Below, one piece after another: positions 4,735 to 18,348 of a stretch of DNA of 20,000 nt. The position numbers and the translations under genes are program-made. Source of the stretch: Chiloscyllium plagiosum (Eukaryota); assembly GCF_004010195.1 (NCBI RefSeq), contig NC_057754.1, positions 5,359,789 through 5,379,788 of the forward strand, written 5' to 3'. The stretch's first letter is position 1; every line of letters begins with the position of its first letter. The notes beneath the pieces are model-generated. The model made no database searches and had not been told where the DNA came from. It saw only the letters and a list, made by a program, of their open reading frames with translations.

Positions 4735-5609
4735 CGTTCGATCTGGATAAATGCGAGATATTGCATTTTGGTACAACAATCAGGGGCAGGGCTTATACCA
4801 TTAATGGTAGGGCCTTGGGTAGTGTTGTAGAACAGTGGGACCCAGGGATGCAGGTACATCATTCTTTGAAGTTTGCAACACTTATAGACAGGGCAGTCAA
4901 AAATGCATTTGGCACATTTGCCTTCATTGCCCAGTCCTTTGAGTACATGAGTTGGGACATCATGTTGAGTTTATACAGGACATTGATGAGGCGTCTTCTG
5001 GAATACCATGCCCAGTTCAGGTGGCCCAGTTATAGGAAGAATATTATTAAGTTGTATAGGGTTCAGAAGAGATTTACCAGGATGTTGTTGGGTATGGAAC
5101 GTTTGATTTATAAAGAAAGGCTGAGACTTTTTTCACTGGAGCGTAGGAGGTTGAGAGGTGACATTATAGAGGTTGATAAAATAGTGAGGGGTATGGATAG
5201 AGTTAATGGTAGCTGTCGTTTCCCCACAGTGGGGGATTTCAAGAGTAGGGGAATCGTTTTTTTAAGGTGAGAGAGGAGAGATTTAAAAAAGACATGAGGA
5301 GCAACCTTTTTATACACAGGGTGGCTCATGTGCGGAATGAACGTCCTGAGGAAGTGGTGGAAGTGGGTACAGTAATAAGGTTTAAAAGACATCCAGATAA
5401 GTACATGAATAGGAAAGATTTGATAGTCATACAGCACGGAAACAGACCCTTCGGTCTAACCAGCCCATGCCACATAATCCCAAACTGAACTAATCCCACC
5501 TGCCTGCGTGGAGGGATATGGGTCAGGCAGGTGGGACTAGTTTAGTTTGGGATTATGGTTGGCACGGACTGGTTGGGCCGAAGGAACTGTTTCCGTGATA
5601 TATGACTCT
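4735..5609 (+). mobile_element. 5'-truncated CR1/HER1-like LINE
   Basis: ORF 4761-5270 (HFGT..GRAYTINGRAL..LYRTLMRRLLEY..RVQKRFTRML..RRRLRGDIIEV), then the 3' UTR ending gggccgaaggaactgtttccgtgatatatgactct. Confidence 0.9.
5423..5507 (-). mobile_element. Inverted CR1 3' tail nested in the LINE above
   Basis: Reverse complement of 5524-5609; it interrupts the host at aggaaagattt^ggagggatatggg. Confidence 0.85.
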
Positions 5610-7920: not shown

Positions 7921-8136
7921 CCATGACTAACCCACCTAGCCTAGACATCCCTGCACACTATGGGACAATTTAGCACGGCCAATCCACCCTAACCTGCACA
8001 TCCCTGGACAAAATGGGGCAATTAAACATGGCCAATCTACCCTAACCTGCACATCCCTGGACACTATGGGGCAATTAAACATGGTCAATTTACCCTAACC
8101 TGCACATCCCTGGACACCATGGGGCAATTAAACATG

Positions 8137-8264
8137 AGGAGAAAGTGAGGTCTGCAGATGCTGGAGATCAGAGCTGGAAATGTGTTGCTGGAAAAGCGCA
8201 GCAGGTCAGGCAGCATCCAGAGAACAGGAGAATCGACGTTTCGGGCATAAGCCCTTCTTCAGGA
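8137..8264 (-). mobile_element. Short Penelope-like (pLTR-type) insertion in the minisatellite
   Basis: 128 bp non-array insert flanked by atggggcaattaaacatg (8119-8136) and atggggcttttaaacatg (8265-8282); array phase shifts by 146 = 128+18; carries a hammerhead core. Confidence 0.8.
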
Positions 8265-8266
8265 AT
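8231..8266 (-). ncRNA. Minimal type-I hammerhead ribozyme
   Basis: Minus strand AUUC-CUGAAGA-A-GGGC-UUAU-GCCC-GAAA-CG-UC|GAUU. Core intact, 4-bp stem II, palindromic ACGU minimal stem III, stem I with one U-U mismatch. Predicted cut between 8235 and 8234. Confidence 0.8.
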
Positions 8267-9678
8267 GGGGCTTTTAAACATGGTCAATCCACCCTAACCT
8301 GCACATCCCTGGGCACTATGGGACAATTTAGCATGGCCAATCCACCCTAACCTGCACATCCCTGGACACTATGGGACAATTTAGCACAGCTAATCTACCC
8401 TAATCTGCACATCCCTGGACACTATGGGGCAATTTAGCACAGCTAATCTACCCTAATCTGCACATCCCTGGACACTATGGGGCAATTTAGCACGGCCAAT
8501 CTACCCTAACCTGCACATTCCTGGGCATTATGGGCAATTTAGCATGGCCAATCCTCCCTAACCTACACATTCCTGGGCACTATGGGCAATTTAGCACAGC
8601 CAATCCACCCTAACCTGCACATCCCTGGACACTATGGGGCAATTAAACATGGTCAATCCATCCTAACCTGCACATCCCTAGACACTATGGGACAATTTAG
8701 CATGGCCAATCCACCATAACCTGCATATCCCTGGACACTATGGGAAAATTTAGCACGGCCAATCCACCCTAACCTGCACATCCCTGGACTCTATGGGACA
8801 ATTTAGCACGGCAAATCCACCCTAACCTGCACATCCCTGGACATTTTGGGACAATTTAGCATGGCCAATCCACCCTGACCTGCACATCCCTGGGCACTAT
8901 GGGACAATTTAGCACGGCCAATCTACCCGAACCTGCACATCCCTGGTCACTATAGGACAATTTAGCACGGTCAATCCACACTAACCTGCACATCCCTGGG
9001 CACTATGGCGCAATTTAGCACTGCCAATCTACCCTAACCTGCACATCCCTGGACACTATGGGGCAATTAAACATGGTCAATCCACCCTAACCTGCACACC
9101 CCTGGACATTATGGGCAATTTAGCATGGCCAGTCCACCCTAACCTACACATCCCTGGGCATTATGGGCAATTTAGCACAGCCAATCCACCCTAACCTGCA
9201 CATCCCTGGACACTATGGGTCAATTAAACATGGTCAATCCACCCTAACCTGCATACCCCTGGACATTATGGGCAATTTAGCATGGCCAGTCCACCCTAAC
9301 CTACACATCCCTGGCACTATGGGGCAATTTAGCACAGCCAATCCACCCTAACCTGCACATCCCTGGACACTATGGGGCAATTAAACATGGTCAATCCACC
9401 CTAACCTGCACACCCCTGGACATTATGGGCAATTTAGCATGGCCAGTCCACCCTAACCTACACATCCCTGGGCATTATGGGCAATTTAGCACAGCCAATC
9501 CACCCTAACCTGCACATCCCTGGACACTATGGGGCAATTAAACATGGTCAATCCACCCTAACCTGCATACCCCTGGACATTATGGGCAATTTAGCATGGC
9601 CAGTCCACCCTAACCTACACATCCCTGGGCATTATGGGCAATTTAGCACAGCCAATCCACCCTAACCTGCACATCCCC

Positions 9679-9879: not shown

Positions 9880-10246
9880 CAGAATCAGTACAGTTTGGAA
9901 TCAGGCCATCCGGCCCATCGAGACCACACCAACTCTCTGAAGAGCATCCCACCTAGACCTACCACCAAACAAACCCACAGCCCAACCCTATCCCAGTAAC
10001 CCTGCATTTCCAGTGGCCAGTCCACCCTAACCTGCACGTCCCTGGACACAATGGGACAATTTAGCACGGCCAATCCACCCTAACCTGCACATCCCTGGGC
10101 ACTATGGGACAACGTAGCACGGCCAATCCACCCTAATCCAAGCAGGGAGGATGTGCAAACTCCACACAAACAGTCACCTGAGGATGGAATCGAACCCAGG
10201 TCTCTGGTGGTGTGCAACAGCAGTGCTACCCATAGTGCCACCGTAC
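9880..10246 (-). mobile_element. HE1-like V-SINE with about 2.5-3 internal 53-bp units and a partial V-domain deletion
   Basis: Head at 10190-10246 (cgaacccagg..cagcagtgcta..gccaccgt); tandem units 10015-10137; tail at 9880-9960. Confidence 0.85.
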
Positions 10247-11825: not shown

Positions 11826-11943
11826 CTTGGGCGCGGTGTCTCCAGAAGAAAAGTCAGTGGGGGGGCGGGGGGGGCGATGAGAAAGACTACAGATAAAAAA
11901 GCAATACTTTCTAATCAATGGTCTATGATGTGTTCATACCCAG

Positions 11944-12037
11944 AGCCAAAGGAGGTGCTGAGAAAGATGTAGAGCTAAAGAAAGACGAGATTCCACTACA
12001 AGAGACGCACATGTCAAAGATGGAGCAGACCATTTAA
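11944..12037 (+). CDS. slc22a6: Probable terminal coding exon of the SLC22/OAT gene (cytoplasmic tail)
   Basis: Branch-like CTAAT at 11911-11915 and acceptor ttcatacccag| at 11943. The phase-2 join gives R-AKGGAEKDVELKKDEIPLQETHMSKMEQTI*, TAA at 12035-12037. The charged tail has IPLQ, resembling the VPLQ of mammalian OAT1. Lies in non-repetitive sequence. Confidence 0.8.
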
Positions 12038-12348
12038 CCAAAGAAGGCATGGTCTCAATAACTCAGCAGCTCTCTCAAATGGCAACTGATATTCTGTAAT
12101 GTCCCAGAGGGAAAACTAAACTAGTATCACTTGGAGATGAACGTACTGTCATTTGAGGTTAAAAAAGACTAGTCAGACTACAGTGTGTCATCCGCAAGTT
12201 TTGCTGGTATTTCCTTCATTCACATTTTCATGTTGTGTTGGATTCTCAACTGGAAAGATTTCTGCTGCTAAATAATAAGGTGATTGATTCGCAGCCGTCA
12301 CAAATCTAAAACACAGGAAATGAATTTTGCAGAATCTGATGTTTGGAT

Positions 12349-12354
12349 ATTAAA
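12349..12354 (+). terminator. Candidate polyadenylation signal (ATTAAA)
   Basis: First canonical-type hexamer I found after the stop codon, about 310 nt downstream. No transcript evidence. Confidence 0.35.
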
Positions 12355-12692
12355 GCACTGGGTTTACATTGGCCTGGAGACCGGGATTACCTTTCAGTTT
12401 CCCCGCACCATGTAGGCTCCAACTCTGCAGCGTAGATCATTTGCACTGACAGATTTCCTGGCCAGCAGTCAGCCTGATTGGGCAGGCTTGGCTTCCAACT
12501 GGGGAGGGAGTGTTCTAGAGAAGCCCACACGACAAGACGGGCCCCATCTGGCTGGGGGGGAGGGTGGCGCTGGTGGCTATGATCTCTGACTCCTTTGGTG
12601 GACGGTTCATGCATGGGTATTTGCTCAGGTTTGGTATTGTGGTGTTTTGCGGGGGGTGGTTTAGGAATCTTGGGTGGAAGGACATGTTCCTC

Positions 12693-12850
12693 TCCTGGCC
12701 CCAAAGCCGTTGTATAAAGATATTCCTTTATCTGTGTCTCATAAGCCGTGGTATAAGGATATTCTTTATTTTCCTGGCCTATAAACTGTCCTATAAAGAT
12801 ATTCCTTTATCTACAGGCCCCCAAGCTATGCTGTAAAGATATTTCATTTC
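12693..12850 (+). repeat. Degenerate ~40-bp tandem repeat (4 units) with a palindromic core
   Basis: Core TATAAAGATATTCCTTTAT at 12713 and 12792, variants at 12752 and 12832; spacing 39/40/40. Confidence 0.75.
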
Positions 12851-13032
12851 CGTTGTAATTCTTGCACCATCTGTGTGCATGGCTGGCCCAGTCAGCATGT
12901 CCTTGGGGAATGGCTGATGAATCACCTTCTTGAAGCACTTCAGTCCATCTGAAAGACGTTCGCAATCCCAATCACCTTTCAAACAGCCGGGTTTCCCAAA
13001 ACGGGAACTCCATTGCTGTCTGGAATTATGAT

Positions 13033-13156
13033 CATGATTTGGAGATGGGCTATAAATTCTCCACAATCACCTGATGAAGGAGCGTCGCTCCGAAAGCTAG
13101 TGTGTTTCCAATTAAACCTGTTGGACTATAACCTGGTGTTGTGTGATTTTTAACTT
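13033..13156 (+). mobile_element. Short Penelope-like (pLTR-type) insertion with perfect 12-bp TSD
   Basis: TGGAATTATGAT at 13021-13032 and 13157-13168; contains a hammerhead core, ATTAAA (13111-13116) and a GT-rich tract. Confidence 0.8.
13068..13102 (+). ncRNA. Minimal type-I hammerhead ribozyme
   Basis: CAC-CUGAUGA-A-GGAGC-GUC-GCUCC-GAAA-GC-UA|GUG. Stem I CAC/GUG, 5-bp stem II, palindromic AGCU minimal stem III. Predicted cut after 13099. Confidence 0.8.
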
Positions 13157-13400
13157 TGGAATTATGATGCATTACACTTAGCTGAACACTTATCCCTGAA
13201 TGTGGAGTGGGTGCTTGAGACTAACGATTCTGTTGCACAGGGTTTTAGGCACAAAGTTACAGTCTCCTCGCTCCCAGAGGTTTCTAAAAGACTTATTTAA
13301 CTTATCGGTAATTTTCCAGGGCACTTTATCACAATCTTCACTGAGATTCTATCAGCGTTTATTCTGAAACAACTTTGAGGGCTTCACCTATTGAGTACGT

Positions 13401-14144
13401 CATCAAACCATACAGCATGGAAACAGACCCTTCAGTTCAACTTGTCCACATATCCTAAATTAATCTAGTCCCAACTGCCAGCATTTGGCCCATATCCTTC
13501 TGAACCCTTCCTATTCATGTACCCATCCAGATGCCTTTTAAATGTTGTCATTGTACCAATCTCCACCACTTCCTCTGGCAGCTCATTCCATTCATTCCCT
13601 CTGCGTGAAAATGTTGCCCCTCAGGTCCCTTTTAAATCTTGCCCCTCTTGCCTTAAACCTATACCTTCTAGTTTTGAACTCCCCGACCCTGGGAAAAAGA
13701 CTGTGGCTATTCACCTTAGGCACACCCCTTTAAGGTCACCCCTCAGCCTCCGATGCTCCAGGGAAAATAACCCCAGCCTATTCAACCTTTCCTTTACAGC
13801 TCAAACCCTCCAATCCCGGCAACATCCTGTAAATCTGTAAAATCCTTTCAAGTTTCACAACATCCCTACTATAGCAGGGAGACCAGAATTGAATGCAGTA
13901 TTCCAAAAGTGGCCAAACCAATGTCCTGTACAGCCGCAGCGTGATGTCCCAACTCCTATACTCGATGCACTGACCAAAGAAGGAAAGCATACCAAACACC
14001 TTCTTCACCACCCTGTCTACCTGCGACTCCACCTTCAATGAACTATGTATCCGCACCCCTATAGCTCTCTTTGTTCAGCAACACTCCCCAAGGCCCTACC
14101 GTTAGCCACGTAAGTTCTGCCCTGGTTTTGCCTTCTCAAAATGC
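13401..14144 (-). mobile_element. CR1/HER1-like LINE 3' fragment
   Basis: ORF 13778-14056 (SSLKVESQVDRVVKK..LYRTLVWPLLEYCIQFWSPCY) plus the 3' UTR and tail toward 13401. Confidence 0.9.
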
Positions 14145-14430
14145 GCTATGTTACTTTGTTGGATATTCCACAGCACCGACCAGAAGAAGGTGACTGTTTG
14201 GTTATCACCATCTTACTTGAGGACTGCAGGAGGTATGGGAGGAGGACAGGACTGAGCAAGGACCTAGACAGTGGAGGAGACACCTGCCTGCCTCTGGATC
14301 GGCTCTCTCCTCCTCTGGGTCACCTCTCCGGCAGACCGACGGTGTCATTACTGGCAATCTGTATGGCCTCTCGCTCCTGAAACACCGCGAGTCCCACAGC
14401 ACACTCCTCACCTTCAAACGACTCGAGTAT

Positions 14431-14465
14431 CGCTGGAGCCTTTCATTTTGCACTCATCAGGACAA
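14431..14465 (-). ncRNA. Degenerate hammerhead-like motif
   Basis: Minus strand UUGUC-CUGAUGA-GU-GCAAA-AU-GAAA-GGC-UC-CAGCG. Core present, but stem II is weak and stem I is broken. Confidence 0.5.
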
Positions 14466-14516
14466 TTCACAAGAATACCCATGTAAAGCAACGCAATGTT
14501 TTATACTGTCTGAGAA

Positions 14517-17779: not shown

Positions 17780-18348
17780 GTCCAGGGATGTGCAGGTTAG
17801 CGTGGATTGGCCGTGCTAAATTGTCCCATAGTGCCCAGGGATGTGCAGGTTATGGTGGATTGGCCGGGCTAAATTGTCCCAAAGTGCCAGGGATGTGCAG
17901 GTTAGGGTGGATTGGAAATGCTAAATTGTCCCATAGTGTCCAGAAATGTGCAGGTAAGGGTGGATTGGCTGTGCTAAATTGTCCCATAGTACCTGGGGAT
18001 GTGCAGGTTAGGGTGGATTGGCCGTGCTAAATTGTCTCATCGTGTCCAGGGTGTGTAGGTTAGCGTGGATTGGCTGTGCTAAATTGTCCCATAGTGCCCA
18101 GGTATGTGCAGGTTAGGGTGGATTGGCCGTGCTACATTGTCCCATAGTGCCCAGAGGTCTATAGGTTAGGGTGGATTGGCCATGCTAAATTGCCCCATAG
18201 TGTCCAGGGATGTGCAGGTTAGGGTGGGTAAGCCACAGCAAATACAGGATGGGTGGGTAGCCTGGCTGGGATGTTCTTCACAGTGTTGATGTGGACTAGT
18301 TGGGCCAAATGGCCTGTTTCCACAGTGGAATAATTCTATGATGTTATG
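17780..18348 (+). repeat. Second SINE-derived 53-bp minisatellite (about 8.5 units, to ~18230) plus SINE 3' tail
   Basis: Unit gggatgtgcaggttagggtggattggccgtgctaaattgtcccatagtgccca, then ggactagttgggccaaatggcctgtttccacag; no SINE head. Confidence 0.92.

What the first reader, a model, noticed from the sequence alone, without database searches (positions are those of the whole stretch)
13021..13168. Sense-strand hammerhead ribozyme plus poly(A) signal inserted about 1 kb after the OAT stop codon
Seen: a 124-bp insert with a perfect 12-bp TSD carries a complete hammerhead core (CAC-CUGAUGA-A-GGAGC/GCUCC-GAAA-GCUA|GUG). ATTAAA starts 12 nt after the predicted cut and a GT-rich tract follows at 13135-13151. 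Established: Penelope-like elements carry minimal type-I hammerheads with palindromic stem III that tend to cleave as dimers, and rodent Clec2 genes have 3' UTR hammerheads. Inference: if the transporter transcript reaches this point, the insert offers both a distal poly(A) site and a self-cleavage site that would detach the tail, or could aid termination.
Basis: partly seen in the sequence, partly recalled or inferred. Interest (0 to 1): 0.75.

Follow-up and report, generated by a model that had tools for sequence, protein, structure and literature searches.

The report
Penelope fragment ends shark transporter mRNA
Public transcript assemblies of an organic-anion-transporter gene stop inside a 124-base scrap of a very common repeat, likely a Penelope-type jumping gene, which likely supplies the mRNA's poly(A) site; the tiny self-cutting-RNA motif in the scrap is probably an idle passenger, because it would need a second copy to fold.

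Summary
In detail: exact 12-bp flanking repeats, 124-bp insert, hammerhead core, ATTAAA 12 nt past the predicted cut (0 of 300 shuffles give the motif). The motif fits the published minimal hammerhead of Penelope-like elements (PLEs), and the insert is a short piece of a very high-copy repeat. New evidence: in 5 of 5 RNA-like runs that hold this SLC22A6-like gene, a contig runs from the last splice acceptor into the insert, with almost no depth beyond it. These runs span three sequence types up to about 4.6% apart. Raw reads of other family copies carry poly(A) tails 13-15 nt after the ATTAAA. The nearer ATTAAA at 12349 is mutated in two runs. So the insert likely provides the main 3' end. Cleavage is unsupported: stem III has no loop, no partner lies in cis, and published monomers are inactive. 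Transposon-donated poly(A) sites are known in mammals; my searches found no PLE case. The scan already noted this repeat family and its poly(A) site elsewhere in this genome.

The parts
11944..12037 (+). Last coding exon of an SLC22A6/OAT1-like gene, from the splice acceptor to the TAA stop (12035-37)
   Evidence: Translation of joined exons; exon 855-1067 best matches SLC22A6, E 2e-22; RNA-like contigs start aligning at 11941, three letters shared with the previous exon end
12038..13131 (+). 3' UTR, about 1.1 kb, ending in the insert
   Evidence: One unbroken contig per run from 11941 to 13060-13099 in X10, X15, X16, X18, X20; depth 0-2.9 beyond about 13180. The end at 13129-13131 is inferred from other family copies.
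12349..12354 (+). Proximal ATTAAA, not conserved
   Evidence: Only other ATTAAA/AATAAA on + in 11900-14500; T>C at 12350 in X15; A>G at 12354 in X20
13021..13032 (+). Left copy of the 12-bp flanking repeat (inferred target-site duplication)
13033..13047 (-). Inverted piece of the element's tail
   Evidence: 13039-47 is the reverse complement of the last 9 letters of the 30-letter family consensus that follows 13158 in X22 (read by eye); 13033-38 inferred
13048..13058 (+). Start of the forward piece; an 18-nt family segment is missing after it in the window
   Evidence: Family loose end before 13059; contigs of X18 and X20 leave the window at 13060 with 18 further letters, not shown by the tool. 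The deletion is inferred.
13068..13102 (+). Minimal type I hammerhead motif; predicted cut 13099/13100; needs a dimer
   Evidence: fits the consensus line of PMC4209133 supplement
13111..13116 (+). Poly(A) signal ATTAAA (AATAAA in many family copies)
   Evidence: T>A variant at 13112 in family reads and contigs
13128..13131 (+). Family poly(A) addition site
   Evidence: 347 and 406 raw reads of X22 run into A tails behind 13128 and 13131. These are other copies; X22 had no reads on the unique UTR.
13135..13151 (+). G/U-rich downstream element
   Evidence: sequence; role inferred from its position
13157..13168 (+). Right copy of the flanking repeat
   Evidence: DNA contig 13135-13435 of X1 spans it

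Best explanation
A short end-piece of a high-copy repeat, likely a Penelope-like retroelement, sits in sense about 1 kb after the stop codon of an SLC22A6-like gene; transcript contigs stop inside it, so the gene likely uses the element's own poly(A) cassette as its main 3' end, while the minimal hammerhead 30 nt upstream of the tail is predicted to stay unfolded and uncut as a lone copy. Shown: the insert and motif; high copy number; transcript contigs reaching the insert and stopping there; poly(A) tails at this position in other family copies; the same insertion in three sequence types. Inferred: PLE origin (no RT gene linked here); that this copy's tail is added at 13129-13131; that it is the main site; that cleavage is negligible.
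For:: summed depth in DNA run X1 is 2.5e6-1.1e7 over 13051-13170 against 12-41 on the flanks (not a copy number, but a very abundant repeat). X15 and X16 have single contigs 11941-13099 and 11941-13088 (depth 53, 338), no intron depth, and 0 depth at 13171-13350, where the DNA run has 12-14. X10 (11941-13088, 2916-nt contig), X18 and X20 (11941-13060; 44 and 51 other letters; depth 7.5 and 647) show the same; beyond 13181 depth is 0, except one X20 contig at 2.9 (about 0.5% of 647). The five runs come from five studies. X22 raw reads give A tails 13-15 nt after the hexamer, where the window has no A run, and no pile-up of read ends at 13099/13100. The proximal hexamer is altered in X15 and X20. 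PLE hallmarks: the consensus of PMC4209133 is met letter for letter; family copies end at 13153-58 or go on into an A/C-rich tail of at least 30 nt; an inverted tail piece starts the insert, as PMC8557442 describes (passages). No cis partner among 323 UH sites. Modelled stem I pairing is 0.001 in 12950-13131 and 0.27 at best in a 47-nt piece; the active dimer is 5-16 kcal/mol worse than two monomers.
Against: No read joins the unique UTR to a poly(A) tail: contigs break inside the repeat, and the raw runs had no reads on the unique UTR (X22) or none at all (X23). Contigs cannot show ends or levels, and the tool warns that holes prove nothing. 'RNA' is a guess for X15, X16, X18 and X20, and X10 was labelled DNA; I infer RNA from the splice-site start. 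Flat contig depth cannot exclude partial use of 12349 where it is intact. The X15 contig ends at 13099, exactly the predicted cut. The folding model ignores tertiary contacts and proteins and had no active-ribozyme control. Unchecked earlier notes report U6 fusions at PLE hammerhead cut sites in this genome, which would mean such motifs do cut in vivo in some context.
Confidence: 0.68

Rival explanations
1. The insert gives the poly(A) site and the hammerhead also cuts a real share of the mRNA, by pairing in trans with abundant family transcripts or with help from a protein, so removing the tail (a Clec2-like outcome).
For: The core is intact and on the sense strand of the transcribed UTR. Family RNA is plentiful in the same runs. 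A PLE protein switches on its hammerhead in vitro (PMC11167929). Earlier unchecked notes e1-8159350 and e1-8160647 infer cutting in vivo.
Against: The dimer would rest on 4 bp plus two 3-bp stems and is modelled as very unfavourable. Dimers and trimers cleave weakly even in tandem (PMC4209133); 8 of 9 Xenopus retrozyme dimers showed no cleavage (bioRxiv 10.64898/2026.07.22.740005, passage). The insert has no ORF region, which the lizard protein needed for insertion activity. Polyadenylated family reads cross the site (832 of about 1146 minus-mate reads at 13105 still cover 13065), though a 30-nt cut product would be lost from such a library.
Confidence: 0.08
2. The proximal ATTAAA at 12349 makes most of the mRNA and the insert only ends a minor long isoform.
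For: The hexamer is intact in the window and no change is listed there for X16; contig depth is flat by construction.
Against: It is altered in X15 and X20. X18 stays unbroken through the distal 700 nt at a mean depth of only 7.5, which a rare isoform would hardly allow (inference; assembly threshold recalled).
Confidence: 0.11
3. The transcript ends elsewhere in or just past the insert (for example after TATAAA at 13051), or runs on and the downstream part was lost in assembly or filtering.
For: No copy-specific tail was seen; the tool warns about holes; TATAAA lies at 13051-56.
Against: The DNA run assembles 13135-13435 at depth 12, so that sequence can be assembled and laid. Five runs agree. 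X10, X15 and X16 run to 13088-13099, at or past where a 13051 signal would cut.
Confidence: 0.09
4. The mRNA's 3' end is made by the ribozyme itself at 13099, with or without later tailing.
For: The X15 contig ends at 13099.
Against: The other contigs end at 13060, 13083 (DNA) and 13088, as expected where 31-letter words become shared with other copies. 13099 lies one word length from 13070, near where many family pieces begin (13068-13073), so a graph break explains it.
Confidence: 0.04

Closest known systems
Minimal hammerheads (min-HHR) in pLTRs of metazoan Penelope-like elements (PMC4209133; parts 1-2 of 4 of the text and part 2 of 3 of supplement file 2 read; file 1 not searchable)
   Same: Consensus NNN CUGANGAH G..C GAAAN NU H NNN met; extra base before 10.1; G10.1-C11.1; palindromic 15.2-16.2; short helix I; mostly lone truncated copies. 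The turtle row has the same G-C palindrome and an AAUAAA just past the cut.
   Different: No shark row in the part read (0 hits for 'shark' or three genus names in the 2 searchable files). The main-text parts read do not discuss poly(A) use. Here the copy ends a host mRNA.
Poly(A) sites adopted from transposable elements in mammals (Lee, Ji, Tian 2008, PMC2553571; abstract and sections 9-10 read)
   Same: [quoted passage not shown]
   Different: The donors there are LINE, SINE, LTR and DNA elements; here the donor is likely a PLE end with a hammerhead core 30 nt before the tail, and it appears to be the main site.
Clec2 3' UTR hammerhead of rodents (passages of PMC6155905 and PMC6765202; the primary paper was not read)
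   Same: A predicted cut between the stop codon and the poly(A) signal of a host mRNA.
   Different: Clec2 is a discontinuous type III that folds in cis with shown cleavage. This is a compact type I lacking stem III, with no cis partner and no cleavage shown.
PAc Poseidon element of Anolis (PMC11167929; parts 1-2 of 4 read)
   Same: pLTR hammerhead; optional A/C-rich 30-40-bp tail; A/T-rich target.
   Different: PAc's hammerhead overlaps the ORF start and was tested with its protein; no ORF is linked here and the clade was not determined.

Membership tests
PLE minimal hammerhead (min-HHR) | Core CUGANGA and GAAA with a UH cut site | tested here: met
PLE minimal hammerhead (min-HHR) | Extra base between 9 and 10.1, G10.1-C11.1, palindromic 15.2-16.2, no helix III loop, short helix I | tested here: met
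   against PMC4209133
PLE minimal hammerhead (min-HHR) | Compensatory changes across copies | not tested
   No family copies could be fetched as loci (no genome; 0 matches)
PLE minimal hammerhead (min-HHR) | Self-cleavage as a dimer | not testable with these tools
   needs an assay; only a secondary-structure model was run
Rfam hammerhead families | Covariance-model match | tested here: not met
   no hammerhead family among the matches
Penelope-like element (EN+) | RT plus GIY-YIG ORF next to the repeat end | not testable with these tools
   No genome held; loose ends are limited to 30 letters
Penelope-like element (EN+) | Optional 30-40-bp tail at one end | tested here: met
   Family copies end at 13153-58 or go on into one shared A/C-rich sequence of at least 30 letters in all 7 runs with reads laid; its full length was not seen
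Penelope-like element (EN+) | Inverted truncated piece at the 5' end of the insertion | tested here: met
   9-letter reverse-complement match of 13039-47 to the tail; short, read by eye
Penelope-like element (EN+) | Target-site duplication confirmed by an empty site | tested here: inconclusive
   Exact 12-bp repeat; all 6 runs covering the locus carry the left junction; no skipping joint among those shown (316 joints hidden, none hidden)
TE-adopted poly(A) site | Host transcript reaches and ends in the element | tested here: met
   5 of 5 RNA-like runs holding the gene; contigs, so the end itself is indirect
TE-adopted poly(A) site | Tail joined to this very copy | tested here: inconclusive
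   Tails seen only on other copies (X22); X23 laid 0 reads
Clec2-type discontinuous 3' UTR hammerhead | Distant substrate strand in the same mRNA completes the fold | tested here: not met
   323 UH sites in the five exons of the window; only the native site gives 3 bp or more on both sides; exons upstream of the window not tested

The most novel reading that the evidence does not exclude
A host mRNA has taken over a whole PLE end cassette, hammerhead plus poly(A) site, and the ribozyme, completed in trans by the genome's abundant family transcripts or by a helper protein, clips off the tail. Transporter output would then be coupled to retroelement expression, and every gene ending in such a stub could be controlled the same way.
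Probability: 0.08. Interest if true: 0.8.

Novelty: new variant of a known kind. Interest (0 to 1): 0.42.

Why it matters
It is a concrete case of a likely Penelope-type element defining the 3' end of a vertebrate protein-coding gene, kept across about 4-5% sequence divergence. Donation of poly(A) sites is well known for mammalian transposons, but I found no PLE case in the library (listings, with passages of a few papers; subscription papers are largely missing). It also places a minimal hammerhead in a uniquely mappable, well-covered mRNA (depth 647 in one run), which makes the open question of whether these motifs cut in animal cells easy to test. With so many copies in the genome, the case is probably not rare, which limits the surprise.

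Tried and rejected
Rfam: no hammerhead match. No whole genome is held, so copy number, covariation and the link to an RT gene could not be tested. Scans for family copies found 0 matches in metagenome, viral and prokaryotic collections. No RNA holder was listed on record; of 24 runs listed I laid 8. X23 laid 0 reads and X22 had none on the unique UTR, so neither tests this gene. I rejected the X15 contig end at 13099 as evidence of cleavage, because a graph break explains it. I rejected a split hammerhead using the inverted repeat 12275-86/13064-75: it could extend stem I, but there is no UH before it. The whole insert folds no better than shuffles (z -0.94). The paper on dimer cleavage of small PLE hammerheads (PMC5785218) is not held; I saw only its citation and a review's summary. 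The Drosophila Penelope promoter paper gave 0 hits for 'polyaden' or 'AATAAA'. A sequence look-up in earlier findings showed nothing.

Full report
Observation. The 12-mer at 13021-13032 recurs exactly at 13157-13168 and nowhere else in the window, and it encloses 124 bp. The core reads CAC, CTGATGA, A, GGAGC-GTC-GCTCC, GAAA, GCTA, GTG from 13068 to 13102; ATTAAA follows at 13111-13116 and the G/T tract at 13135-13151. A descriptor for minimal hammerheads, written with this motif in view, finds this one site on either strand and none in 300 dinucleotide shuffles. Rfam has no hammerhead match. The gene is SLC22A6/OAT1-like (exon 855-1067, E 2e-22), with its stop at 12035-12037.

What the insert is. 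It is a piece of a very abundant repeat: summed contig depth in DNA run X1 rises from 12-41 on the flanks to millions over 13051-13170 (not a copy number). Family copies either end at 13153-13158 or go on into a shared A/C-rich sequence of at least 30 letters. The last 9 letters shown for that tail in X22 are the reverse complement of 13039-13047, so the insert starts with an inverted scrap of the tail. An optional tail and an inverted 5' piece are described as typical of PLE insertions (PMC8557442, passages; PMC11167929, parts 1-2). The motif meets the metazoan min-HHR consensus of PMC4209133 in each feature listed. I could not link it to an RT gene, as no genome is held and collection scans were empty, so PLE origin is a strong inference.

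Does the transcript reach it? Yes. Of 24 runs listed I laid 8. Five hold the gene as one contig that begins aligning at 11941, at the splice acceptor, with no intron depth, and runs into the insert: X15 to 13099, X16 and X10 to 13088, X18 and X20 to 13060. They come from five studies. Their RNA status is a guess by the tool (X10 was even guessed as DNA); I infer it from the splice-site start. Beyond about 13180 their depth is 0, apart from one X20 contig at 2.9 against 647 upstream, whereas DNA run X1 assembles 13135-13435 at depth 12. The other two runs were raw reads: X22 had none on the unique UTR and X23 laid none.

Where does it end? X22 shows the family's own poly(A) site: 347 and 406 reads run into A tails behind 13128 and 13131, 13-15 nt after the hexamer and just before the G/U tract, where the window has no A run. 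Those reads are from other copies, so the tail on this copy is inferred. The only other canonical hexamer in the UTR, at 12349, is altered in X15 (12350) and X20 (12354). X18 stays unbroken through the distal UTR at a mean depth of 7.5, which argues that the long form is not rare. Flat contig depth cannot exclude some use of 12349 where it is intact.

Age. X10 and X15 differ from the window at 4 and 6 letters, X16 at 10, X18 at 44 and X20 at 51 over about 1120-1160 nt. All carry the same left junction with the inverted piece, so the insertion predates these three sequence types. X16 and X18 bear the same organism label but differ in distance from the window, so I count sequence types, not species. 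X18 and X20 leave the window at 13060 with 18 further letters, matching in length the family segment missing from the window there; that deletion is probably later. Their contigs stop before the core, so conservation of the core in them is unknown. No empty site was seen.

Does the ribozyme cut? Nothing here shows it. Stem III is AGCU with no loop, so one strand cannot close it. The UTR has no second usable half-core, and none of 323 UH sites in the window's exons offers another substrate strand. In the folding model stem I pairs with probability 0.001 in the context 12950-13131 (0.27 in a 47-nt piece), and the double hammerhead is 5-16 kcal/mol worse than two free strands; this model ignores tertiary contacts and proteins and had no positive control. 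In print, the monomer tested was inactive and dimers were weak; the lizard motif cleaved only with the element's protein, and no RNA-seq ends fell at its cut. In X22 family reads cross the site with no pile-up of ends, though a 30-nt tailed product would be lost. Against this, unchecked earlier notes report U6 fusions at the predicted cuts of several PLE families in this genome, so such motifs may cut in the element's own context. The X15 contig end at 13099 is not usable evidence, since it is one word length from where many family pieces begin. A cut upstream of the signal would remove it rather than help the 3' end form (inference).

Comparison and verdict. Functionally this resembles LTR-derived poly(A) sites adopted by mammalian genes (PMC2553571, sections 9-10), with a likely PLE donor; my searches found no such PLE case. 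It does not meet the defining feature of the Clec2 ribozyme. In the published min-HHR alignment, 9 of the 44 rows in the part I read have AAUAAA or AUUAAA just past the cut (counted by eye, A/U-rich sequence, no control), so the hammerhead-plus-signal cassette may be common in PLE ends. Verdict: a real, known kind of motif in a likely adopted poly(A) cassette; interest 0.42; the regulatory-cleavage reading about 8%.

Noticed in passing
window about 8136-8265, minus strand (core 8239-8262): A second minimal hammerhead of a different family (stem II GGGC/GCCC, ACGU palindrome, GUC cut site, only 2 bp of stem I here), antisense in the last intron, interrupting a 53-bp tandem array.
   Followed up: partly
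window 7945-8136, 8279-9677, 10015-10136, 17782-18227: Arrays of a 53-bp unit, up to 26.6 copies, on both strands; the unit resembles part of the dispersed SINE-like repeat in the window.
   Followed up: no
window 12691-12852: Four degenerate 40-bp repeats inside the 3' UTR, containing three TATAAA; transcribed in all five RNA-like runs.
   Followed up: no
window 5467-5565: Long near-perfect hairpin that draws weak miRNA matches below gathering scores; it looks like a fold-back junction of a LINE-like 3' end (LINE label recalled).
   Followed up: no
window 12349-12354: The proximal ATTAAA differs between runs with the same organism label (X15 vs X1) and is ATTAAG in X20.
   Followed up: yes
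PMC4209133 supplement file 2, part 2: 9 of 44 min-HHR rows read have AAUAAA or AUUAAA within about 15 nt of the cut, including turtle and Xenopus; counted by eye, no control.
   Followed up: partly
runs X16 and X18: Same organism label but about 0.9% and 3.9% distant from the window over the UTR, so one label may be loose.
   Followed up: no
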